Origin: a virus
Taxonomy: Duplodnaviria > Heunggongvirae > Uroviricota > Caudoviricetes
IMG/VR virus record: IMGVR_UViG_2909314774_000001
Reading direction: 5' to 3' (one strand)
DNA: 64,000 nt
Below the pieces are notes generated by a model, which was not told the origin of the DNA, ran no database searches, and saw only the letters and a list, made by a program, of their open reading frames with translations. Positions 4,818 to 20,267 of the stretch are shown here, piece after piece. A program made the position numbers and the translations under genes. Each line of letters opens with the position of its first letter. Within the stretch, counting starts at the first letter, position 1.

Positions 4818-5339
4818 TTATTCTTCGAACAATTTTTCGATAGATTTTGTAGGATAGAACAAAGAACGCTCGTTGTTACCAACCAGCTGGATAAAGCCTA
4901 AACTTTTATAAAACGCCTTGGCTTTGTCATTTAACGCCTCAACGAAAAGTCCATGAATGCCTACAGCAAGAGATGCATTGTACACAACGCGCATTGCATG
5001 TGTTACAAGCATTGAGCCAAATCCTTGACCTTGAAGGGACTTGTCCAAAGCCAGCCTACCCAAAGTAACACTTGGAACATTCCGATAAGGAACCTTCTTT
5101 TGTTTGCTTCTTGAAGGTAAGGACTCCTTTTCAAAACAACTACCTGACAAAGTGTAATATCCTAACACTTTTGGCCTTTCTTCTTGAGTGCAAAGCACAT
5201 AAGCACGAAGAATTTTTCCCTCATGCTGCCTTTTTAAGTGGTTGGCTAAAAAGGCGTTTAGTGACTCTTCGCCGCAATCAAAACCGTTTAGATCATAATC
5301 TTTCTCTCCAGAGAAAATCTCTATCGTTGTATTGCTCAC
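4818..5339 (-). CDS. GNAT-family acetyltransferase toxin (TacT/AtaT-like)
   Basis: GNAT acetyl-CoA binding region (QGQGFGSML...); immediately downstream of a small RHH/DUF1778-like gene on the same strand, separated by 8 bp. Confidence 0.8.
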   Translation of the reverse strand: MSNTTIEIFSGEKDYDLNGFDCGEESLNAFLANHLKRQHEGKILRAYVLCTQEERPKVLGYYTLSGSCFEKESLPSRSKQKKVPYRNVPSVTLGRLALDKSLQGQGFGSMLVTHAMRVVYNASLAVGIHGLFVEALNDKAKAFYKSLGFIQLVGNNERSLFYPTKSIEKLFEE

Positions 5340-5346
5340 GAGTAAA

Positions 5347-5616
5347 CTACTCCATGCTTTTCAGACGATCAGCAGCTCGTTTCAGCTTGTCGTTCGGTGC
5401 CGGAGGATTGCTTATAGCGTCCATAACCAGATTCCAGGATTCTTCATTCAGAACTAGTCTACGGTGTTGCTCTATAACTTTCACGGCACGTTCAGATGCA
5501 CTGCTAACCATAAACTGAGTAATGCTCTGGTTAGACATTGCGGCAGCTTCCTCGATGATGCTTTTATCGTCATCGGTTAATCTCAAATCGATGCGCTGCT
5601 TTTTTAGTGCTGACAT
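5347..5616 (-). CDS. RHH/DUF1778-type antitoxin (TacA/AtaR-like)
   Basis: Start set at MSALKKQRIDLRLTDDDK with AGGAGG RBS upstream; partner of the downstream GNAT toxin. Confidence 0.75.
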   Translation of the reverse strand: MSALKKQRIDLRLTDDDKSIIEEAAAMSNQSITQFMVSSASERAVKVIEQHRRLVLNEESWNLVMDAISNPPAPNDKLKRAADRLKSME

Positions 5617-5934
5617 GTATTCCTCCTGATGGCCGTGATGTAGGAAGGCCATCAATCTCCTCTGTTCAAACTGAGTTTTCGACTCAAAAATTACTTTAAA
5701 AGGCTATAGCCCATTACGTGTGCATTATCAAATTGTGTACGGCATATCACCGTACTTGTAATATAGAGGTCATTGTTACTTTTTTCAACAGACAAATACA
5801 AGCTATGATTGCCAATTGTTAATCACAACCTACCATTTAACCTTTACACCGCAGCCGTAGGCATTTAGGCTATATCACATATAAGAAAACAAGTTGTTTC
5901 AGACGATAATTATATACGCAAAGGGAACTCTCCA

Positions 5935-6603
5935 ATGACCAAGATCTTTGTGGTTGGCGGCACAAAGGGCGGGCCTGGCAAATCCACCGTTGCCCAGCAA
6001 ATTGCCGTTTGCCTGAAAGTCAAAAAGAAGAAGAAGGTTTATATTACCGATATAGATATTCAGCGCACGACAACGAGCTGGTGTGAAGACCGTCGACAGA
6101 ACGAAGACCTTGAGCTGATTCCTTTTGCATACGTTCAGGATGACATCATTAAGCACCTAAAATCGCTTCAGGGTAGAGCTGAGTTTGTAGTGGTAGATGC
6201 CGGTGGCTTTGACTCCGAAATTCAGCGACAAGCGATGCTGATGGCTGACGTTATCATTATCCCGCTTCGTCCTAAGCGTCGTGATTTGAAATCTCTGCGT
6301 GACATTGATCCTATTATCGACAATGTTCGTAATGTAAACGATAAAGTGAAGGTCCGCGCGGTCATGAACCAGTGCCCGGCTTTGCCATCACAAGTGTCTC
6401 GCATTCTGGCGGCTAAAGAGATTGTCGAGACGTTTGGCATCGAGTCTGCGCCAGTCAATCTATATAACCGCAACGTCTATGATGATGCGGAAGAGTCTGG
6501 TCGTTCTATCTTTGAAATGACCGGTAGCGAGCGCGACAAAAAGGCGGAAGCCGAGTTTGAAGAATTTGTAGATTATCTGTTGAGTCTGGAGGAAGAAGAA
6601 TAA
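5935..6603 (+). CDS. parA: ParA-like partition ATPase
   Basis: Deviant Walker A GGTKGGPGKST near the N-terminus; followed by a small DNA-binding partner with a TAATG overlap. Confidence 0.85.
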   Translation: MTKIFVVGGTKGGPGKSTVAQQIAVCLKVKKKKKVYITDIDIQRTTTSWCEDRRQNEDLELIPFAYVQDDIIKHLKSLQGRAEFVVVDAGGFDSEIQRQAMLMADVIIIPLRPKRRDLKSLRDIDPIIDNVRNVNDKVKVRAVMNQCPALPSQVSRILAAKEIVETFGIESAPVNLYNRNVYDDAEESGRSIFEMTGSERDKKAEAEFEEFVDYLLSLEEEE

Positions 6604-6962
6604 TGTCCATGAAAATGGGTGACCTAGCAAAGCGCAAAGAGCCTGATGCACCGGCTAAGAACACAACTCCTTTGCGCCAACCAGTCAGACCACAGGGACG
6701 CCCGACTCGTGGCAAAGAGAAAATTAAAAGCCGCACAATGTCACTGGAGGACGAATACTTCGAACTGCTGGAGATGATGAAGTTCATCCCTCGCTTCGAG
6801 AAATTCACCCGCTCTGATGTGATTCGTGCTGCTATTTTCCATCTTGCGGAGAAGACACCGCAGGAAATCGAGGACATCGTGAAACTTAACGAGGCGATCA
6901 CAGCTGCCGATGTCACGATGCGTACCGATGAAATTAAACGCGAGTTGATGAAGAAAGGGTGA
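6603..6962 (+). CDS. Ribbon-helix-helix centromere-binding partition protein (ParG/ParB-like)
   Basis: Basic N-terminus and an RHH-like segment (SLEDEYFELLEMMKF...RSDVIRAAIFHL); translationally coupled to parA. Confidence 0.55.
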   Translation: MSMKMGDLAKRKEPDAPAKNTTPLRQPVRPQGRPTRGKEKIKSRTMSLEDEYFELLEMMKFIPRFEKFTRSDVIRAAIFHLAEKTPQEIEDIVKLNEAITAADVTMRTDEIKRELMKKG

Positions 6963-7013
6963 TTATATTGGGCGTTTGTTACGCCCAATATATGAGTTGA
7001 AGGATAGACACCA

Positions 7014-8720
7014 ATGGAATCGATAGAAGTATTTTTAAAAAATTTTTTGGACTCAGATCATCGGGTTGCTGTCATAAAAGGAAATTGGGGAGTAGGTAAA
7101 ACGCATTATTGGAATAGCTTTTATACTAAACATTCTAAAAAATTAGATTTTAATGCATATTCATATGTTTCTTTGTTTGGAATAAATTCTATTGGAGACA
7201 TTAAAAAAGCTCTTTATCATTGTGCCACACCAATTAATGAAAAGAAATATAAAGAACTGATTTTATCTGAAACGGATCGAACTATGATTCGTTATAGAAA
7301 TGGGTTTTGGGGATGGTTGAAATACAACTCCTTGTCAAAATTTTTAATACATTTTGGAAAGAACGATTTTTTTGGGTTCAAAACTGATAATCTGCTGTCA
7401 TCTCTTGAGTATAAATTTGTTAATAATTATTTGGTTTGCATTGATGATATTGAACGAAAAGGTAGTGCGCTAGAAATTAAAGAGATTATGGGGGTAATTG
7501 ATGAGTTGGCAAGAAGAAAAAATTGCAAGGTTGTTCTAATATTAAATGAAGATAACTTACATGAAGAAACTGCACAACAACAGTTTTTAGAGTATAGAGA
7601 AAAAATAATTGATGTGGAAATAAAATACGATCCCACGCCTGAGAAAAACTTAAGAAAAGTTTTTTATGAGACTGACCCTGATTTTCTTTTGTTAAAAAAC
7701 CTAGTAAATGATTTAAACATCAAAAACATTAGAATATTAAATAAAATAAAATCATCTCTAGTTATATTTAGAGATGTGCTAAAGTTAGCAGAGGATAAGG
7801 TTAGAGAAAGTTTTATTAATAGATTGGTCTTATTTTCAGTGGTTTACTATTTTGGTGTTCCTAGCGTTGATTATGCTTCATTTAAGGAGTCAATCAAAAA
7901 TATACATGCATTCGACTATATGTTAGATGATAAAGATGAAAAGGAAGAAGTTAACTCTGTATATTCATTTGTTAATAGCCTTGATGTTATTTATGAACGA
8001 GCAGAAAGTGCTTTCGATGATGATATAGATTTTTACCTTAAGAACGGTTATGTTTCTTCTGAAAGCAATATTCTAAATATAATAAAAGAAAAAAATGAAC
8101 AATATAGAGATAATAGGGTTTTATGTGAGGTTTATAAAATTTGGGATGTTTTTAGAAACTCTTTTAAAGATAATGAATCAGAGTTTATTTTTCAAATTGA
8201 GCGCGTAATTAACGATAGTCTGTTGCGTATACCAATTGGACAGTTCGTAGGTTTAATAAATGTCCTAATTAAATTGGATAGAGATTGTAATAATATTATA
8301 GAGGCATATGCAGATGCTTTTGTTAATAAAGAAAATGCGTATGCTACATTTAATTCTTTGCGAGTAGAGATCTTCGGAAATGAAGAATTAGGTTTCAGAA
8401 TTGAAAAAAAATTGAAAGATAGAAATCCAGATGACTATAACTTAGATAAAATTATAAAAAAAATAGCTGGTGGAAGATTTAACCATAGTGATGTGAATAT
8501 TCTTAACAGTTTTTCTAAAGATGATTACGTAAACTGGATATTATCCTGTGATCAGGATGCTTTGAATTTAGTAGAAGAGACTATGCTCAAGTTCAAGGGT
8601 ATGCAACACCCGACAGACGAACAGAAGAGCATCACTGATAAAGCAATAGAAGCTTTGGAGGAAGTTGCTTCAAAATCAACACTTAATAAGCTGCGTGTTA
8701 ATAAAATACTCAATCATTAA
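7014..8720 (+). CDS. KAP-family P-loop NTPase (PifA-like)
   Basis: Walker A GNWGVGKT at residues 22-29 and Walker B LVCIDDIERK; the gene is markedly more AT-rich than its neighbours. Confidence 0.65.
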   Translation: MESIEVFLKNFLDSDHRVAVIKGNWGVGKTHYWNSFYTKHSKKLDFNAYSYVSLFGINSIGDIKKALYHCATPINEKKYKELILSETDRTMIRYRNGFWGWLKYNSLSKFLIHFGKNDFFGFKTDNLLSSLEYKFVNNYLVCIDDIERKGSALEIKEIMGVIDELARRKNCKVVLILNEDNLHEETAQQQFLEYREKIIDVEIKYDPTPEKNLRKVFYETDPDFLLLKNLVNDLNIKNIRILNKIKSSLVIFRDVLKLAEDKVRESFINRLVLFSVVYYFGVPSVDYASFKESIKNIHAFDYMLDDKDEKEEVNSVYSFVNSLDVIYERAESAFDDDIDFYLKNGYVSSESNILNIIKEKNEQYRDNRVLCEVYKIWDVFRNSFKDNESEFIFQIERVINDSLLRIPIGQFVGLINVLIKLDRDCNNIIEAYADAFVNKENAYATFNSLRVEIFGNEELGFRIEKKLKDRNPDDYNLDKIIKKIAGGRFNHSDVNILNSFSKDDYVNWILSCDQDALNLVEETMLKFKGMQHPTDEQKSITDKAIEALEEVASKSTLNKLRVNKILNH

Positions 8721-8728
8721 TAGATTAT

Positions 8729-8791
8729 GACCTGCTTCCGTATGTATTTAATAAGTTACTTATTATTTGTATATACAGAAGCAGGTCTTTT
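8729..8791. terminator. Long palindromic element / putative bidirectional terminator
   Basis: Stem GACCTGCTTC...GAAGCAGGTC enclosing an AT-rich loop, then TTTT; a near-twin sits at 56152-56226. Confidence 0.5.
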
Positions 8792-8901
8792 AAAGACACC
8801 CACCAGAACAAGTCCCTTCCGTTTCCACTTCCAAAAACTGCCACCAGTCGCTATCATCCGCTCATTGTGATAAGTAAGTAACTACCTACCAGGTGAGCCA
8901 C

Positions 8902-9642
8902 ATGAGCCAAATCTTTTTCGATACCATCGACAACGACCAGTACGACTTCATGACAGAGTGGAATACCGCTGTTATGGACAAGTGGGTTGCTGAAAACATT
9001 GGTTTGTCGCGCTGCAAAGACGAGGCTGAACTGTTTGAGACGAAGTGGTTTGATTACCGCGATATGCATCCTCTCATGGCCACCTGTCTGTTTACGGAGG
9101 CATACAAACGTCAGTACTCAAATATCATGCTGACGCACGGTCGTGAACACTTTGAAACAGCTCCGTTCACCACCGGGTTAAAACGCTTGCCTTATCAGGA
9201 GTTGTCGACTGCTAATAAAACGTCGCTATGGAAAGCACGCCAGTTTGCGGATCGCTATTGCTGCTCATACGACTACTTTATCTCCACTGTTCTTTCCGCA
9301 GCTGCACGACGTCTGTGGGACAAGCTGCCTCGCCCACAGCATTTGTGGCAGCCAGAACTGATTGAGATATTTGAAGAGAAATTAGCCAGACGCGCAACAA
9401 CCCGTCTGGATGACTCTCTGGTTAGCTTTAAGCATATGGGAGACATGCAGTTCAACCCGATTCAGGAAAGCTATTTTGAGTGGATTCTGGAGCGTTTGCG
9501 CACCATCCCTCGCAGCAAGCGCATACGCGCAATTTTCTCCGCTATCTGGCTAATGGAAATCGTTCCAGAGCGCCTTATTTCCGACCACTTTCCAGAAGAA
9601 CTGGAAGAAGCACGGCGGTTTATTGATCCCCTATCTAATTAA
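8902..9642 (+). CDS. Hypothetical protein
   Basis: ORF with AGGTGA RBS 5 nt before ATG 8902; no recognisable motifs. Confidence 0.5.
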   Translation: MSQIFFDTIDNDQYDFMTEWNTAVMDKWVAENIGLSRCKDEAELFETKWFDYRDMHPLMATCLFTEAYKRQYSNIMLTHGREHFETAPFTTGLKRLPYQELSTANKTSLWKARQFADRYCCSYDYFISTVLSAAARRLWDKLPRPQHLWQPELIEIFEEKLARRATTRLDDSLVSFKHMGDMQFNPIQESYFEWILERLRTIPRSKRIRAIFSAIWLMEIVPERLISDHFPEELEEARRFIDPLSN

Positions 9643-9685: not shown

Positions 9686-11026
9686 ATGACCGAACTTTGC
9701 CATACAGGACGCGGGCTGTCCGAAGAGTTTGATGAAGATTTCCAGAACAGACTGACGGCATATTTTTGTCGTGATCACGAGTTTCTTACTCGTGCGGGAG
9801 ATCTGGTTGTGCCTAGCCAGTTTGCCAATGCGGCCAATGCCATATTGGTTAATATGGTTTCGGGCTATTACCGTATGTACAAGAGCGCGCCCTCTTCATC
9901 TGCAATTCTGGATATGCTTAAGCGTGCGAAACGCGATAAGACTATCCGTGAGGAACTATTCGCCGATGTTGTTGCTGCGTTTAAGCGCATTCTTGCAGAA
10001 AAATTGTCCGATACCTCGTACATGGTTGACCAGGTATCAACCTTCGCAAAAAGTGTAGCGTTTGATGATGCTCTGATTAAGGCTGCTGAACTGAAAGAGA
10101 AAGGCGACTTTCAGGGGGCGATGGCAATCATGGCCAAGGTTCAGCAGATTGGATCGAACGAAGCGACCGGAATCTATGACTACTACACCTCCGCAAGTGA
10201 GCGATTGAAAGCGCGTGAATATGAGGCTTCAGAGGAGTATGTACCAAACAGTATTACAACTGGACTCCCTCTTCTCGATAGGTTGCTGTACCAAAAAGGC
10301 TGGGCAAAGCGCGAAATGGTGCTCTTCATGGGGTTCGCTAAATCCGGTAAATCGACCGCAATGGGTGAGTTTTCCATAAACGCAACGCTTGCTGGCTACA
10401 ATGTTCTGTATCTCTCGCTGGAGGTTCACACCACCATTTTATCCGACCGTTTTGATGCAAGATTGTCGGAGACAGAAATGTCCAAGCTGGTGGAACGGCG
10501 CGATGAGGTTCATCGTAAGTTGGCAGAGTTGGGAGCCACGAAGGGGATTGGTAGTTTGTGGGTGGTTGAGCGTCCGTCAGGAAGTATGTCACCGGCAGAT
10601 CTGGACCGTATGCTTAACAGCATGAAAGCCAACGGCATGGTACCTGACATGGTTGTTGTCGACTACGCAGATTTGATGCGTGCCAGTTATGACCTTCGTG
10701 ATGATCGCGCCAACATTCGTAGTATCTACACCGATTTACGTGCTCTTTATGACAAGCATAACGTTGCTGGGATCACGGCATCGCAGACAAACCGTGAAGG
10801 TGGAGCGTCAGAAGTTGCCACAATGATGCACGCTGCCGACAACATCGAAAAAGTACGTATTGCTGACCTGGTAATAACGATCAACAAAACCGAAGAAGAA
10901 GAAGCGAAAGGAGAGGCTCGTCTCTACTTTGCTGGTTCACGTAACCAGCAGGGAGGGATCAGCATTCGCGTTAAACAAAACCTCGAACAAATGCGCTTCA
11001 TTGAGCGAATCTTAGACGTTACCTAA
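9686..11026 (+). CDS. DnaB-family replicative DNA helicase
   Basis: Walker A GFAKSGKST and RecA-like C-terminal domain; conserved AAAGGAAAGCACATG start context. Confidence 0.85.
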   Translation: MTELCHTGRGLSEEFDEDFQNRLTAYFCRDHEFLTRAGDLVVPSQFANAANAILVNMVSGYYRMYKSAPSSSAILDMLKRAKRDKTIREELFADVVAAFKRILAEKLSDTSYMVDQVSTFAKSVAFDDALIKAAELKEKGDFQGAMAIMAKVQQIGSNEATGIYDYYTSASERLKAREYEASEEYVPNSITTGLPLLDRLLYQKGWAKREMVLFMGFAKSGKSTAMGEFSINATLAGYNVLYLSLEVHTTILSDRFDARLSETEMSKLVERRDEVHRKLAELGATKGIGSLWVVERPSGSMSPADLDRMLNSMKANGMVPDMVVVDYADLMRASYDLRDDRANIRSIYTDLRALYDKHNVAGITASQTNREGGASEVATMMHAADNIEKVRIADLVITINKTEEEEAKGEARLYFAGSRNQQGGISIRVKQNLEQMRFIERILDVT

Positions 11027-17075: not shown

Positions 17076-17157
17076 CAGACACAGCGTTGAGCGGTTTGGC
17101 CTTTTAATCAACCAGATTAAGACTCCGCTAACATAAACCAGACCGCTCAACGCTGTG
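17076..17157. repeat. Long imperfect hairpin E (candidate structured RNA)
   Basis: Arms ACAGCGTTGAGCGGTTTGG / CCAGACCGCTCAACGCTGT, ~38 nt loop; directly after tRNA-Ser. Confidence 0.5.
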
Positions 17158-17234
17158 ATAGACAATTACGGCAGACGTTCTTAACCATAGCTTGCTAACA
17201 TCCTAGCAACACTTTTTTCAGCGCAAAATTCAAA

Positions 17235-17254
17235 GGGGCTTCGGCCCCTTTTTT
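17235..17254. terminator. Intrinsic terminator, probably bidirectional
   Basis: GGGGC-TTCG-GCCCC followed by TTTTTT on the + strand, with a T-rich tract on the - strand as well; separates the tRNA cluster from the convergent gene at 17270-18532. Confidence 0.7.
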
Positions 17255-17269
17255 GTTGAACAGTGCAAT

Positions 17270-18532
17270 TTACTTTGCATAGTCGCCCAATTTTAATATT
17301 TCGCGCTTATATTCATTAACCATGCTACTGGATTCAGTATAAATTCGATTTAAAAGATTATCGTTATCTTTATTTTCATTTATCTTAATTAGTGCTAATT
17401 TATATTCATAGTCATCAAATGCCACAATTAAATGGTGGCCTGGGATTATATCTTCGTCACTCTTAAAGTATATATCTTCAAGTATGTAATCTAGTTGATT
17501 AGATTTTCTTTTCTCGATGTAATCTTCAGCCATAGCTATTACATCATTCCTGTCATTTAACCTGTTTTTTTCGGAAGGCACATCTTCGTAATGTTGCACG
17601 ATTGAACAACCAATAAGGCGTGGGATGTAAACGTCAAAATGAGTAACTCTATCATTCGCGGTTTTAAGTAGTTCCTCAAAGTAGTTTCTTACATGTAAAG
17701 GCAACTTCTCAAAGTAATCATTAATTATAGGAGAACAAGGAGTTTTATAATTCATAAGAACCGACGGTACGAGCTTTGGGTGTCGAAACATCCAGTCCCT
17801 TTTAACGTCCGATGGAACATAATAACTTTTAATGATATTATCAAAATAATTTATCATTCGAGATTTGAATATTTTGTTGAATCTAAGGTTTATGAATGTA
17901 TCCAGATAAGGCATATTTGAATAAGCATCATCAAAAAATATTTCATCATTGAAAAAATCATATTTATTCAATAAACAACACAGTTTTTCCGAATTAATAT
18001 GTTCACAATAATCGATTTTTAATCCAAAGATAGCAATGATCAACTTCATCTGAGGTGGGATTTTAAAAATTAATTGTGACACATACGCTCTTTTTTCCTT
18101 GAGACATTCCCCATCAATATAAAATGAACCATCCACATACTCAAATATATTAATAATATGCTTCACATACTGTATTACCTCATGCTGTCTTACCAATGGG
18201 TAATATAGTCTATGTAACTCATCGCTGTTTAAATTAATTTTGTGTTTATCGATAATTTGTTTTGCAAGAAGACATAACTCATCATGTTGATTTAATAAGG
18301 AATCAAACCATTGTTTAAATGCACTCTTTCGCATTTCGAACAATGATTCAGTTGTTAATTGAAGGGCTGAAAAAGCTGCTTTTGCACTTTTTCTCGCTTC
18401 GTAGGCATTCCATGCTGTTGCTATAAAAGCAAATGCTGTAGCCAATGTTCCAACAGTTTGACCATTTAAAACAACCCAATCCCAAAAAATGACGGTGAGC
18501 AGTAGTATAATAATGAAAATTAAAAAAGGCAT
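17270..18532 (-). CDS. Membrane-anchored protein of unknown function (420 aa), AT-rich island
   Basis: N-terminal hydrophobic helices (FLIFIIILLLTVIFWDWVVL; TLATAFAFIATAW) then a large Asn/Tyr/Lys/Phe-rich soluble domain; base composition far more AT-rich than flanking genes. Confidence 0.6.
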   Translation of the reverse strand: MPFLIFIIILLLTVIFWDWVVLNGQTVGTLATAFAFIATAWNAYEARKSAKAAFSALQLTTESLFEMRKSAFKQWFDSLLNQHDELCLLAKQIIDKHKINLNSDELHRLYYPLVRQHEVIQYVKHIINIFEYVDGSFYIDGECLKEKRAYVSQLIFKIPPQMKLIIAIFGLKIDYCEHINSEKLCCLLNKYDFFNDEIFFDDAYSNMPYLDTFINLRFNKIFKSRMINYFDNIIKSYYVPSDVKRDWMFRHPKLVPSVLMNYKTPCSPIINDYFEKLPLHVRNYFEELLKTANDRVTHFDVYIPRLIGCSIVQHYEDVPSEKNRLNDRNDVIAMAEDYIEKRKSNQLDYILEDIYFKSDEDIIPGHHLIVAFDDYEYKLALIKINENKDNDNLLNRIYTESSSMVNEYKREILKLGDYAK

Positions 18533-18706
18533 GTATGTATTTCACTCTACTAACTATAAAATATTAGGCTAATGTTAACCAAACAATGCCTTAATTAATA
18601 GATTGATCGAGGCTTTAATAGCTTTATAATGCAGATTGCAAAGATAAGTATGCACACACCTATCTTCTTTGTAAGTAAAGTTGCATATCAATTCTATGAG
18701 GTAACA

Positions 18707-19163: not shown

Positions 19164-20267
19164 ATGAAAAATAGCTTTGACAGAGCACGCGCTGCGGAGA
19201 ACACCTCAAAAGAGGCGATAGAGTATCTCGAAAGAGCATCTCAAATGCAGGCCGTTATGATCTCCCAGGTCAGCAATGACATGAGATTCTCGGACGCATT
19301 CATGTTATTCACTCGCTTATCTCTGCTGATAACCAGACGTCGGCCAGAGATCGCTGTTCATTGTATTTTGATACATGTTTTGCCGCACATTGCCGATGTA
19401 AAAGTAAGTGACATTAATAGGTTCATGGTGAACCAACTGGTCAACCCACTAATACTGGATGGCAAAATTGTTATGGGCCGCCGCGTTTTCTCTCTGATGA
19501 AGCAGTTCCTTAGCTGGTGCGCCTTCCAGGGGATGATAGACGTGTCACCGTTAAACGATATGTCACTTAACAAAGTTGCCGGTGGCGCAAAGCCCACACC
19601 TCGCGAGCGGAAGCTGACCGACGCAGAGGTATGGGTGTTCTGGAATATATGGGACTACTTCAATGTGTGTGCTGGTACAAAATGGGCGGCCAGGCTATGT
19701 CTTGTATCCGCAAGACGACCTGACGAAGTACTGCGGGCTAAAAAAAGTGAGTTCAATCTTAAGCGTGGGGTTTGGAATCAAGGCAAGAGGAACAAATCTG
19801 CCCGTGAGCATTCTCTGCCTTTAAGCTCATTAATGCGCACTTGTATTGAAGAGTTGTTCGAATATGGTAAAGACAGCCAGTGGCTCGTGCCTTCGAATAA
19901 AAAAATCGGGAAAGACCTTCCTATGTCTAAAGTGGCAATAGCCCAGGCATTACGTCGTATTCTGGAACGACCAGAACTGATGGAGCTTGAGCCATTTACA
20001 CCCCGAGATTTGCGCCGTACTGCGCGTAGTTACTTCCCAGCATTAGGCATAAGCCAGGAGGTATCACGTAAAATCATGAACCACAGTCTTGAGGGGATAG
20101 ATCGGGTCTACGACCGGCACGATTATATGGACGAGATGCGAGACGCCTTAGAAAGTTTCTCGACGTACATCGCATCAATCGTAGAGCAACCGGATTTAGA
20201 CGAAATTGACCACAAATTTAAGGGAGATCGTCTATCAACAGAGCTTATTCGTGTAAATTTTTCATAG
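19164..20267 (+). CDS. Tyrosine recombinase (phage-integrase family) lacking an N-terminal arm-binding domain
   Basis: Core-binding and catalytic domains with R...H..R...Y-type segments (LVSARRPDEV..., ...RDLRRTARSYF..., HSLEGIDRVYDRHDY); nothing upstream resembles an arm-binding domain. Confidence 0.7.
   Translation: MKNSFDRARAAENTSKEAIEYLERASQMQAVMISQVSNDMRFSDAFMLFTRLSLLITRRRPEIAVHCILIHVLPHIADVKVSDINRFMVNQLVNPLILDGKIVMGRRVFSLMKQFLSWCAFQGMIDVSPLNDMSLNKVAGGAKPTPRERKLTDAEVWVFWNIWDYFNVCAGTKWAARLCLVSARRPDEVLRAKKSEFNLKRGVWNQGKRNKSAREHSLPLSSLMRTCIEELFEYGKDSQWLVPSNKKIGKDLPMSKVAIAQALRRILERPELMELEPFTPRDLRRTARSYFPALGISQEVSRKIMNHSLEGIDRVYDRHDYMDEMRDALESFSTYIASIVEQPDLDEIDHKFKGDRLSTELIRVNFS

What the first reader, a model, noticed from the sequence alone, without database searches (positions are those of the whole stretch)
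7014..8791. AT-rich island with a lone KAP-family (PifA-like) P-loop NTPase next to the partition genes
A 568 aa protein with Walker A GNWGVGKT and Walker B LVCIDDIERK is far more AT-rich than its neighbours and is closed off by a 60 bp palindromic element, so it looks like a recently acquired single-gene cassette. The KAP family is named in part after PifA, the F-plasmid protein that excludes phage T7, so this could be an exclusion or abortive-infection function carried by a phage-plasmid. I see no second gene inside the island.
Basis: partly seen in the sequence, partly recalled or inferred. Interest (0 to 1): 0.75.

Follow-up and report, generated by a model that had tools for sequence, protein, structure and literature searches.

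The report
Swappable defence-gene slot in a phage-plasmid
The AT-rich gene is a real, intact, soluble P-loop ATPase sitting in a fixed "cargo slot" of an SSU5-like E. coli phage-plasmid, a slot that in sister plasmids holds known anti-phage genes instead, so it is most likely an untested single-protein anti-phage (or anti-mobile-element) function, but it is not a PifA relative and not a recent arrival.

Summary
Observation confirmed. ORF 7014-8720 (+) encodes 568 aa with Walker A and B motifs. The island has 29.7% GC, the lowest of the 64-kb window (mean 45.5%). It holds one gene.

Correction: the 59-bp palindrome (8729-8787) is not part of the island. It is a backbone hairpin followed by a T-run. 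It is conserved in every relative, whatever the slot holds, including an empty slot and Salmonella phage SSU5.

The variable segment is 6964-8723. It lies between the parA/119-aa operon and the replication genes of an SSU5-like phage-plasmid. Among 5,426 complete E. coli genomes about 250 carry this backbone. Counts from separate cargo searches:
- GIY-YIG PD-T4-3-like gene: 107
- 352-aa unknown: 37
- this NTPase: 27 (two alleles, 76% aa identity)
- DUF2971 (PDC-S31): 21

A sample of backbones also showed DUF2971+PD-T7-5, a 225-aa unknown, and nothing.

The protein passes Pfam KAP_NTPase only marginally. It matches PADLOC candidate PDC-S49 over its N-terminal half only. It has no transmembrane segment and no similarity to PifA beyond the P-loop core. 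Its C-terminal alpha-solenoid domain is specific to the family, and no enzymatic effector domain is found.

Orthologues at 38-42% identity occupy the same slot in Klebsiella and Salmonella phage-plasmids. All have about 30% GC, so low GC is a family trait and not a sign of recency.

Best reading: an untested, NTP-driven single-gene defence moron.

The parts
5935..6603 (+). parA-type partition ATPase (222 aa), conserved left backbone
   Evidence: ORF. 100% aa identical to the p09EL50 gene annotated as AAA family ATPase, and called ParA in SSU5 and Cyrano. Orthologues carry Pfam CbiA/ParA/MipZ. Promoter-like sites lie upstream at 5782-5836.
6603..6962 (+). 119-aa gene overlapping the parA stop; probable small partition partner; last conserved gene on the left of the slot
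   Evidence: phrog_5111, full length. No Pfam hit. Weak RHH-like aCcr1 hit, 21 bits, below cutoff. 90-99% aa conserved in relatives. Its Cyrano orthologue CYRAN_29 is transcribed 9x above prophage background (PMC9928086).
6964..8723 (.). Variable cargo segment (the AT-rich island proper)
   Evidence: Homology to relatives with other cargo ends at 6958-6967 and resumes at 8724-8725. GC 0.297.
6964..6992 (+). Cargo-specific perfect hairpin (12-nt arms, 5-nt loop) right after the stop codon of the 119-aa gene; no T-run
   Evidence: -20.4 kcal/mol, z -4.2. Shared only with the other NTPase allele. Each other cargo type has a different hairpin at this position.
7014..8720 (+). 568-aa soluble P-loop NTPase (KAP superfamily, PDC-S49-related, phrog_4740)
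7080..7103 (+). Walker A GNWGVGKT (residues 23-30)
   Evidence: Read directly from the sequence. Invariant in 59 homologues.
7431..7460 (+). Walker B LVCIDDIERK (residues 140-149)
   Evidence: Translation. D144, D145, E147 and R148 are invariant.
7239..7412 (+). About 58-residue insert between Walker A and B (residues 76-133), aromatic-rich and partly disordered in the model. Classical KAP NTPases carry transmembrane hairpins at this position (from memory of the family description)
   Evidence: AF2 model: pLDDT <50 for residues 98-124. No 19-residue window in the protein exceeds Kyte-Doolittle 1.6, and that maximum lies at residue 403, not in the insert.
8001..8717 (+). C-terminal all-alpha (solenoid-like) domain, residues 330-568; family-specific; the fastest-diverging part between the two E. 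coli alleles
8729..8787 (.). Backbone palindrome / terminator-like hairpin followed by TTTT; right border of the slot, not part of the cargo
8788..8892 (+). Conserved non-coding leader of the downstream replication genes
   Evidence: Near-invariant in the alignment of six relatives, including SSU5.
8893..9642 (+). 249-aa conserved gene (phrog_2500), first gene on the right of the slot
   Evidence: 85-98% aa conserved.
9686..11026 (+). DnaB-like replicative helicase, right backbone
   Evidence: 93-94% aa identical in the Klebsiella and Salmonella relatives.

Best explanation
The window is an SSU5-like E. coli phage-plasmid of the Cyrano/pLF82, p09EL50 type. Between the partition operon (parA plus a 119-aa gene) and the replication module (orf249, dnaB, primase) there is a fixed cargo slot. 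The slot is bounded on the left by the stop codon of the 119-aa gene and on the right by a conserved terminator-like palindrome. Sister plasmids hold unrelated single-gene or two-gene cargo there, several from anti-phage families. Here the cargo is a 568-aa cytosolic P-loop NTPase. It has an AAA+/STAND-like core of the KAP superfamily, a flexible insert between Walker A and B instead of transmembrane helices, and a family-specific C-terminal alpha-solenoid domain.

Proposed mechanism (inferred, not shown):
1. The gene is expressed as a lysogeny-phase moron. It is probably read through from the parA promoter and terminated at the backbone palindrome.
2. The rapidly diverging C-terminal domain recognises a component of an infecting phage or competing mobile element.
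3. Recognition triggers an NTP-dependent switch or oligomerisation of the NTPase core.
4. No nuclease, TIR, protease or pore domain is present. The output is therefore most likely direct ATP-dependent interference with, or sequestration of, the invader's target, possibly on DNA as in ORC/TnsC/MuB-type AAA+ assemblies. An enzymatic suicide effector is less likely.

Cargo is exchanged between phage-plasmids by homologous recombination in the conserved flanks.
For: Shown:
- Intact ORF with invariant Walker A and B residues.
- Pfam KAP_NTPase 25.8 bits against a cutoff of 20.
- PADLOC PDC-S49 E = 1.6e-21, and all 59 family members hit it.
- phrog_4740, full length.
- Purifying selection between the two E. 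coli alleles: dN/dS 0.09 at the N-terminus rising to 0.33 at the C-terminus.
- The C-terminal domain has only generic helical-repeat matches and is restricted to this family.
- Slot variability: separate cargo searches in complete E. coli genomes found a PD-T4-3-like GIY-YIG gene (PADLOC 1.3e-23) in 107 genomes, a 352-aa unknown in 37, the NTPase in 27 and DUF2971/PDC-S31 (1e-40) in 21. The backbone was found in 249 genomes. All hits are on plasmids and none on chromosomes. A sample of backbones also showed DUF2971 plus PD-T7-5 (1.8e-139), a 225-aa unknown and an empty slot.
- The window's flanks are closer to pLF82, which carries DUF2971 (98.8-99.1% nt), than to the plasmid carrying the other NTPase allele (97.7-97.8%). 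Cargo therefore does not track the backbone.
- Orthologues occupy the same slot in Klebsiella and Salmonella phage-plasmids.
- Distant homologues are always solitary. One lies in a Pseudomonas prophage beside the S24 repressor, one lies two small genes from an OLD-like TOPRIM ATPase, and one is immediately followed by a DUF2971 gene.

Literature:
- Other KAP P-loop NTPases with uncharacterised C-terminal regions protect E. faecalis from phage in a Walker-B-dependent way (PMC12632615).
- PD-T4-3 is active in a native E. coli host (10.1101/2024.12.20.629700).
- PD-T4-3 and PD-T7-5 were detected in SSU5-group phage-plasmids (10.1101/2025.09.12.675607).
- The slot cargo of Cyrano (CYRAN_30) is listed among genes transcribed 6x above prophage background in lysogens (PMC9928086).
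Against: - No phenotype exists for this protein or its family. PDC systems are explicitly untested candidates (10.1101/2024.01.29.577857).
- The PDC-S49 profiles align only to the N-terminal half (residues 3-326 on profile positions 8-325 of 624). The score is low for a true member: 75 bits on a 624-position profile, against 463 bits on 346 positions for the PD-T7-5 cargo.
- The Pfam KAP score is marginal.
- No effector domain was found, so the output step is speculation.
- Two of the slot's cargo types have no defence annotation at all.
- Three of six chromosomal contexts show no defence or mobile-element neighbours. The Oleispira locus has only an IS66 element nearby.
- No own promoter was detected in the 50 bp upstream, and a hairpin sits between the 119-aa gene and the start codon. 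Expression is therefore inferred from a different cargo in a different plasmid.
- dN/dS stays below 1 everywhere, so there is no direct signature of an arms race.
Confidence: 0.62

Rival explanations
1. A PifA-type exclusion protein. It would be an orthologue or close functional analogue of F-plasmid PifA that aborts T7-like infection on sensing specific phage proteins.
For: Both proteins pass Pfam KAP_NTPase. Both are plasmid-borne single proteins.
Against: - BLASTP against PifA gives 23% identity over 245 residues of the P-loop core only, E = 0.15. There is no similarity elsewhere, and the lengths are 568 and 741 aa.
- PifA scores 148 bits on the KAP model against 25.8 bits here.
- The PADLOC PifA model does not hit the window protein. 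It hits 1 of 59 family members, at 2.4e-4.
Confidence: 0.05
2. A plasmid-maintenance or replication accessory. It would be an AAA+ protein acting with ParA and the 119-aa protein in partition, or as a loader or initiator for the adjacent DnaB/primase module.
Against: - It is present in only 27 of about 250 E. coli backbones. Elsewhere unrelated genes, including a nuclease, replace it. At least one plasmid, pOkiPb01698_2, has an empty slot with an intact backbone.
- Chromosomal and prophage homologues are not next to par or rep genes.
- The structural matches cover only the generic AAA+ core.
Confidence: 0.07
3. A moron with another benefit or selfish function. Examples are a toxin-like addiction or post-segregational module, a lysis-lysogeny or induction sensor for the phage-plasmid itself, or an anti-defence factor protecting the element from host immunity.
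For: - Toxin-antitoxin genes lie immediately upstream: a GNAT/KacT-type toxin and a DUF1778 antitoxin at 4818-5655.
- Two of the slot's cargo types have no defence annotation.
- STAND-like NTPases are generic signalling switches.
- The protein has no recognisable killing domain.
Against: - No antitoxin partner lies in the cassette.
- Alternative cargo includes two families that PADLOC lists as anti-phage systems (PD-T4-3 active in a native host), not anti-defence genes.
- Homologues occur in chromosomes without any phage-plasmid, so a function specific to this element's life cycle is unlikely.
Confidence: 0.15
4. A decaying or silenced passenger. It would be an AT-rich xenogeneic gene kept silent (for example by H-NS) with no current function.
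For: Very low GC (0.29). No own promoter was detected. The window's allele is rare: 6 of 5,426 complete genomes.
Against: - The 568-codon ORF is intact.
- dN/dS is 0.09-0.33 between alleles.
- Full-length conservation, with invariant catalytic residues, holds across hundreds of clusters from many genera.
- The slot position is retained in three host genera.
Confidence: 0.05

Closest known systems
PADLOC candidate PDC-S49 (untested 'guilt-by-embedding' single-gene candidate; Payne et al., bioRxiv 10.1101/2024.01.29.577857)
   Same: It is the best hit in PADLOC-DB (E = 1.6e-21). All 59 family members hit it. It is a single-gene P-loop NTPase of about 600 aa.
   Different: Only the N-terminal NTPase half aligns (profile positions 8-325 of 624), and the score per position is low. 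The C-terminal domain here is not covered. The present family is at best a sister group. PDC-S49 itself has no experimental support.
KAP P-loop NTPases shown to defend Enterococcus faecalis (EF_KAP and three metagenomic KAPs; PMC12632615)
   Same: The architecture is a KAP-type NTPase followed by a roughly 300-aa C-terminal region with no known domain. These are single proteins. Walker B is required. EF_KAP is reported not to act by abortive infection.
   Different: EF_KAP has two N-terminal transmembrane helices, and this protein has none. The hosts and the mobile-element context differ.
PifA of plasmid F (T7 exclusion)
   Same: Same Pfam superfamily (PF07693). It is a plasmid-encoded single protein.
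   Different: There is no significant pairwise similarity (E = 0.15). PifA is 741 aa against 568 aa here. The C-terminus differs. The PADLOC PifA model does not hit. This protein is not an orthologue of PifA.
Tmn (transmembrane YobI/KAP-like NTPase; PMC13001434, PMC11846954)
   Same: It is a single-protein P-loop NTPase defence. ATP turnover is triggered by a phage protein.
   Different: Tmn is a membrane protein reported to act through Mg2+ export and plasmolysis. The window protein has no transmembrane segment and gets no PADLOC Tmn hit.
STAND/Avs-type NTPase sensors, and RdrA of RADAR
   Different: There is no N-terminal effector domain. The Pfam nSTAND3 score is below threshold (19.6 against 27.2 bits). 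The protein is much shorter.
Defence hotspots of temperate phages and satellites, such as the P2 and P4 hotspots (Rousset et al. 2022, from memory)
   Same: The position is fixed between conserved core genes. Unrelated cargo, rich in anti-phage genes, is mutually exclusive at that position. Empty variants exist. Exchange is by flank homology.
   Different: Here the element is an SSU5-like phage-plasmid, and the slot lies between the partition and replication modules. In the papers I searched I found no description of this particular slot as a hotspot.

Membership tests
KAP family P-loop NTPase (Pfam PF07693) | Profile HMM score above the curated gathering threshold | tested here: met
   25.8 bits against a cutoff of 20, E = 7.7e-6, residues 18-258 on profile positions 22-282 of 293. 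This is marginal; PifA scores 148.5 bits.
KAP family P-loop NTPase (Pfam PF07693) | Walker A GxxGxGK[ST] and Walker B hhhhDD motifs | tested here: met
   GNWGVGKT (23-30) and LVCIDDIERK (140-149). The key residues are invariant in 59 homologues.
KAP family P-loop NTPase (Pfam PF07693) | Transmembrane helices inserted within the NTPase domain between Walker A and B (typical of many prokaryotic KAPs; from memory of the original family description) | tested here: not met
   A ~58-residue insert is present (residues 76-133; 109 residues between the motifs), but no 19-residue window exceeds Kyte-Doolittle 1.6 and that maximum lies elsewhere. AF2 models helices and a disordered loop there.
PifA (F-plasmid T7 exclusion protein) | Significant sequence similarity to PifA over its length | tested here: not met
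   BLASTP: 23% identity over 245 aa of the P-loop core only, E = 0.15.
PifA (F-plasmid T7 exclusion protein) | Hit to the PADLOC PifA model | tested here: not met
   No PifA hit at E <= 1 for the window protein. Only 1 of 59 family members hits, at 2.4e-4.
PifA (F-plasmid T7 exclusion protein) | Exclusion of phage T7 | not testable with these tools
   Needs a plaque assay.
PADLOC PDC-S49 | HMM hit to the PDC-S49 models | tested here: met
   PDLC05031 E = 1.6e-21, PDLC05029 3.2e-15, PDLC05030 6.6e-13.
PADLOC PDC-S49 | Alignment over most of the profile (full-length membership) | tested here: inconclusive
   The best stretch covers profile positions 8-325 of 624. The C-terminal ~240 aa is not aligned. 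The best family member reaches only 2.1e-29. PADLOC's own coverage thresholds were not available.
PADLOC PDC-S49 | Demonstrated anti-phage activity | not testable with these tools
   PDC systems are described as 145 untested candidates (10.1101/2024.01.29.577857). No paper in the library mentions PDC-S49.
Tmn (transmembrane NTPase defence) | Transmembrane helices, and a hit to a Tmn model | tested here: not met
   No transmembrane segment. No Tmn model among the PADLOC hits at E <= 1.
STAND / Avs-like NTPases | STAND NTPase profile above threshold, plus an N-terminal effector domain | tested here: not met
   nSTAND3 scores 19.6 bits, below the 27.2 cutoff. The NTPase starts at residue ~15, so there is no room for an N-terminal effector. 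Only fold-level similarity is seen.
Mobile-element defence hotspot (cargo slot) | Fixed position between conserved core genes, with sharp homology breakpoints | tested here: met
   Breakpoints at 6958-6967 and 8724-8725 in five relatives. Flanks are 97.7-99.1% identical within E. coli.
Mobile-element defence hotspot (cargo slot) | Multiple unrelated, mutually exclusive cargo types, and an empty state | tested here: met
   At least six cargo types plus an empty slot.
Mobile-element defence hotspot (cargo slot) | Cargo enriched in known anti-phage systems | tested here: met
   PD-T4-3 (1.3e-23), PD-T7-5 (1.8e-139), PDC-S31 (1e-40) and PDC-S49-like. Two cargo types have no hit.

The most novel reading that the evidence does not exclude
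The protein may found an uncharacterised class of single-protein immunity. It would be a soluble KAP/STAND-like NTPase with no effector domain and a private alpha-solenoid sensor, and it would stop phages or rival plasmids by ATP-driven assembly on the invader's protein or DNA, not by an enzymatic suicide domain. It would be carried as one of at least six interchangeable cargoes in a previously undescribed defence hotspot that SSU5-like phage-plasmids of E. coli, Salmonella and Klebsiella keep between their partition and replication modules. A second such slot lies near the tRNA/integrase region.
Probability: 0.3. Interest if true: 0.7.

Novelty: new variant of a known kind. Interest (0 to 1): 0.5.

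Why it matters
SSU5-like phage-plasmids are common in clinical E. coli, Shigella, Salmonella and Klebsiella. About 4.6% of complete E. coli genomes here carry this backbone.

A defined and easily recognised cargo slot that shuffles anti-phage genes between these elements would help predict phage-therapy failure. It is also a cheap place to mine for new immunity genes. The 352-aa and 225-aa cargoes and this NTPase are all uncharacterised.

The NTPase is a tractable test case for how KAP-type ATPases without a membrane anchor or a recognisable effector can act. It comes with two natural alleles whose C-terminal halves differ strongly, which sets up a ready-made specificity-swap experiment.

Tried and rejected
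- **PifA orthology:** rejected by direct BLASTP against F-plasmid PifA and by the PADLOC PifA model.
- **Tmn-like membrane NTPase:** rejected. There is no transmembrane segment and no Tmn hit.
- **Palindrome as a cassette end, att site or transposon inverted repeat:** rejected. It is backbone sequence present with every cargo, in the empty slot and in SSU5.
- **Transposition signatures:** no flanking direct repeats beyond chance-level AT-rich matches, and no transposase or integrase inside the island. One relative carries an IS1 in this region, which is secondary.
- **Low GC as evidence of recent acquisition:** rejected. Orthologues diverged to 38-42% identity keep the same ~30% GC in three host genera and in Pragia.
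- **A non-coding RNA in or around the island:** Rfam gives only sub-threshold chance hits.
- **Solved-structure homologues by sequence:** none at E <= 1.
- **NCBIfam:** no family.
- **Literature:** searches for PDC-S49 and for the RefSeq protein WP_014962310 found nothing.
- **Replication-initiator reading of the Cdc6/ORC/TnsC structural hits:** judged generic AAA+ similarity, given that the gene is dispensable across relatives.
Full report
**1. The observation**

The ORF at 7014-8720 (+) is real: 568 codons, an ATG start and an AAGGA ribosome-binding site 9 nt upstream. It carries GNWGVGKT (residues 23-30) and LVCIDDIERK (140-149). In an alignment of 59 homologues, G23, W25, G26, G28, K29, T30, D144, D145, E147 and R148 are invariant. 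So are N238, R240 and K244, and N178 is nearly invariant.

The segment 6964-8723 has 29.7% GC and the CDS has GC3 of 23%. The four flanking genes have 47-50% GC and 50-57% GC3. This is the lowest of all 1760-bp windows in the 64 kb (mean 45.5%, sd 3.5%). No second plausible gene lies inside.

The palindrome exists at 8729-8787, folds at -28.3 kcal/mol (z = -6.7) and is followed by TTTT. The description is therefore correct, with one exception covered in section 2.

**2. What the surroundings show**

Megablast places the window in the SSU5-like phage-plasmids of E. coli. Relatives include Escherichia phage Cyrano (pLF82), CMS-2020a, p09EL50 of O104:H4, and 723 PLSDB plasmids, 690 of them non-mobilizable. 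Cyrano is described as a phage-plasmid, and encapsidated Cyrano DNA was detected by qPCR (PMC9928086).

Aligning the window to five relatives gives sharp breakpoints. Homology ends at 6958-6967, which is the stop codon of the 119-aa gene after parA. It resumes at 8724-8725.

The palindrome therefore lies in conserved backbone. It is present in plasmids whose slot holds quite different genes, in Salmonella phage SSU5 (80% backbone identity), and in a plasmid with an empty slot. It is best read as a terminator or insulator in front of the replication genes, not as a cassette end.

By contrast, the perfect 12-nt hairpin at 6964-6992 belongs to the cargo. Each cargo type brings a different hairpin at that spot.

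**3. The slot is a cargo hotspot**

Cargo found at the same position in relatives:

| Cargo | Example | Best PADLOC/Pfam hit |
|---|---|---|
| Second allele of the same NTPase, 564 aa, 76% aa identity | p09EL50 | PDC-S49; KAP_NTPase |
| DUF2971 protein | pLF82, SSU5 | PADLOC PDC-S31, 1e-40 |
| 255-aa GIY-YIG protein | pMB3825A_2 | PADLOC PD-T4-3, 1.3e-23; Pfam LEM-3_GIY-YIG |
| 352-aa protein | pU_B2_3 | none; phrog_22329 |
| 225-aa protein | pLR1-109k | none; phrog_1353 |
| DUF2971 plus PD-T7-5 pair | pR7-S2K78-1 | PD-T7-5, 1.8e-139 |
| Empty | pOkiPb01698_2 | not applicable |

In the empty slot, 30 bp separate the stop codon from the palindrome. That stretch retains a remnant resembling the 3' end of the SSU5 DUF2971 gene.

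Counts in 5,426 complete E. coli genomes, from separate searches:

| Query | Genomes |
|---|---|
| Backbone | 249 (always on plasmids) |
| GIY-YIG gene | 107 |
| 352-aa gene | 37 |
| NTPase | 27 (6 with the window's allele, 21 with the other) |
| pLF82-type DUF2971 gene | 21 |

None of these cargo genes was found on a chromosome.

The window's flanks are closer to pLF82, a DUF2971 carrier (98.8-99.1% nt), than to p09EL50, which carries the other NTPase allele (97.7-97.8%). Cargo is therefore exchanged independently of the backbone. The most simple mechanism is homologous recombination in the flanks (inference). A DefenseFinder survey has already reported PD-T4-3 and PD-T7-5 in SSU5-group phage-plasmids, without locating them or mentioning this NTPase (10.1101/2025.09.12.675607).

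**4. The protein**

- **Family searches.** Pfam gives KAP_NTPase at 25.8 bits against a cutoff of 20, and a sub-threshold nSTAND3 hit. PADLOC gives only PDC-S49 (1.6e-21), and the alignment covers only the N-terminal half of the 624-position profile. All 59 family members hit PDC-S49, but none better than 2e-29. The family is thus related to that candidate and not clearly the same. PHROGs places it full-length in phrog_4740, of unknown function. NCBIfam and PDB sequence searches find nothing.
- **Insert.** A ~58-residue insert lies between Walker A and B and is partly disordered in the model. Classical KAPs carry transmembrane hairpins at that position (from memory of the family description), but here no segment is hydrophobic enough.
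- **No effector.** No nuclease, TIR, protease, pore or other effector fold was detected.

**5. PifA**

F-plasmid PifA (741 aa) was retrieved and compared. BLASTP gives 23% identity over 245 residues of the P-loop core, E = 0.15, and nothing elsewhere. PifA scores 148 bits on the KAP model. 'PifA-like' is therefore true only at superfamily level.

**6. Age and evolution**

The family is broad, with 976 hits. Members are full length at 28-35% identity in chromosomes of Shewanella, Pragia, Oleispira, Pseudomonas and others.

Klebsiella and Salmonella SSU5-like phage-plasmids carry orthologues at 38% and 42% identity in exactly the same slot, in the order parA, 119/120-aa gene, NTPase, 241-aa gene, dnaB. 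Their backbone proteins are 82-94% identical to the window's. In a midpoint-rooted NJ tree without bootstrap support, the phage-plasmid copies form one clade apart from the chromosomal ones.

All copies have ~30% GC, including in backbones of 48-50% GC. The Pragia copy has 27% against 45% in its flanks. Low GC is thus a stable property of the family and not a mark of recent arrival.

Between the two E. coli alleles:

| Measure | N-terminus | C-terminus |
|---|---|---|
| aa identity | 95% (residues 1-120) | 56% (residues 461-568) |
| dN/dS | 0.09 | 0.33 |
| dS | 0.31 | ~0.9 |

. The gene is under purifying selection and is functional. The C-terminal half is either older, pointing to a mosaic gene, or less constrained. 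Both fit a specificity module, but this is not proof of positive selection.

**7. Context of distant homologues**

In all six chromosomal or prophage loci examined, the gene is solitary and has no conserved partner.

- One lies in a Pseudomonas prophage next to the S24-peptidase repressor, a typical moron position.
- One lies two small genes from an OLD-like TOPRIM ATPase in Shewanella.
- One is immediately followed by a DUF2971 gene in a Pseudomonadales MAG, the same pair of families that alternate in the slot.
- The Oleispira copy sits beside an IS66 element and otherwise among ordinary genes.
- Two sit among housekeeping genes.

N-terminal-only relatives occur in SPbeta-like, Burkholderia and Campylobacter temperate phages.

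**8. Mechanism**

Shown: an intact, selected, soluble P-loop NTPase with an AAA+/STAND-like core and a private helical C-terminal domain, located in a slot that otherwise carries anti-phage genes.

Inferred:

- **Expression.** The gene is probably transcribed from the parA promoter region (promoter-like sites at 5782-5836; none between 6603 and 7013 on the + strand) and terminated at the backbone palindrome. This fits the report that the Cyrano slot gene CYRAN_30 and the upstream CYRAN_29 are transcribed 6x and 9x above prophage background in lysogens (PMC9928086).
- **Sensing.** The C-terminal domain would act as sensor.
- **Switch and output.** An NTP-dependent switch or oligomerisation would follow. 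The output would then be direct, non-enzymatic interference or sequestration.

The nearest experimental precedent is the 2025 preprint showing that several KAP P-loop NTPases with uncharacterised C-terminal regions protect E. faecalis in a Walker-B-dependent manner, non-abortively in one case (PMC12632615). Tmn shows ATP turnover triggered by a phage protein, but through a membrane mechanism that cannot apply here (PMC13001434).

**9. Rivals**

- **Partition or replication accessory.** Contradicted by dispensability: 27 of ~250 backbones carry the gene and an empty slot exists.
- **PifA orthology.** Contradicted by direct comparison.
- **Silent junk.** Contradicted by selection and wide conservation.
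- **Another moron function** (addiction, life-cycle sensing, anti-defence). Cannot be excluded, and I give it about 15%.

**10. Verdict**

- This is an untested, architecture-wise distinct member of the KAP-type NTPases, a group that is emerging as anti-phage proteins.
- Its most useful context is a clear cargo hotspot in SSU5-like phage-plasmids. I did not find this hotspot described in the papers searched.
- Interest is moderate (0.5).
- Novelty: new variant of a known kind.

Noticed in passing
window 17101-18700 (ORF 17270..18532, - strand): A second AT-rich island (GC 0.27-0.33) holds a 420-aa ORF with a hydrophobic N-terminus. It matches phrog_18168 (unknown function) and has no Pfam, PADLOC or NCBIfam hit. 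It lies between a tRNA cluster and grxA plus a tyrosine integrase (19164-20267). Only 34 complete E. coli genomes cover at least 80% of the 4.5-kb query around this island. Relatives carry Gp49-family or AbiGi-family genes at this place, so it looks like a second cargo slot.
   Followed up: partly
window 4818-5655 (- strand): A GNAT/KacT-type acetyltransferase toxin (173 aa) and a DUF1778 antitoxin (102 aa) lie just upstream of parA. Many relatives match the window only from about 5828 onward, so this toxin-antitoxin module is itself variable. In Cyrano both genes are among the lysogeny-expressed morons.
   Followed up: partly
L015 (pOkiPb01698_2) 1229-1262: The only empty slot seen keeps 30 bp between the stop codon and the palindrome. 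That stretch resembles the 3' end of the SSU5 DUF2971 gene (CTGGCAGCTTCAAT(T)CAGAACCTG). The 'empty' state therefore looks like a deletion of a DUF2971 cargo, not a virgin site.
   Followed up: partly
L021 10001-12613 (Pseudomonadales MAG): A distant homologue of the NTPase is immediately followed by a DUF2971 gene. These are the same two families that alternate in the phage-plasmid slot. In pR7-S2K78-1, DUF2971 is paired with PD-T7-5.
   Followed up: no
window 6603-6962: The 119-aa gene after parA is annotated 'RelE/ParE putative toxin' in phage Cyrano. It has no Pfam hit and only a weak RHH-like (aCcr1) match. A small ParG-type centromere-binding partner of ParA seems more likely.
   Followed up: partly
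window 6964-6992 and the equivalent positions in L002-L004, L010, L012: Every cargo type, on either strand, carries its own different GC-rich hairpin directly after the stop codon of the 119-aa gene. Position and form are conserved and sequence is not. The function is unknown; it could be an operon terminator or attenuator, or an RNA stabiliser.
   Followed up: partly
proteins P0122, P0123, P0138, P0155 and others: About a dozen representative proteins of 258-270 aa consist of the C-terminal domain alone, starting near residue 20-35. They could be split-gene versions of the family or truncated metagenomic gene calls.
   Followed up: no
NZ_CP041423.1 (hits H21, H151): One relative carrying the second NTPase allele also has an IS1A annotated within the matched parA-to-dnaB region, whose span is about 775 bp longer than in its siblings. 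Its exact position was not checked.
   Followed up: no
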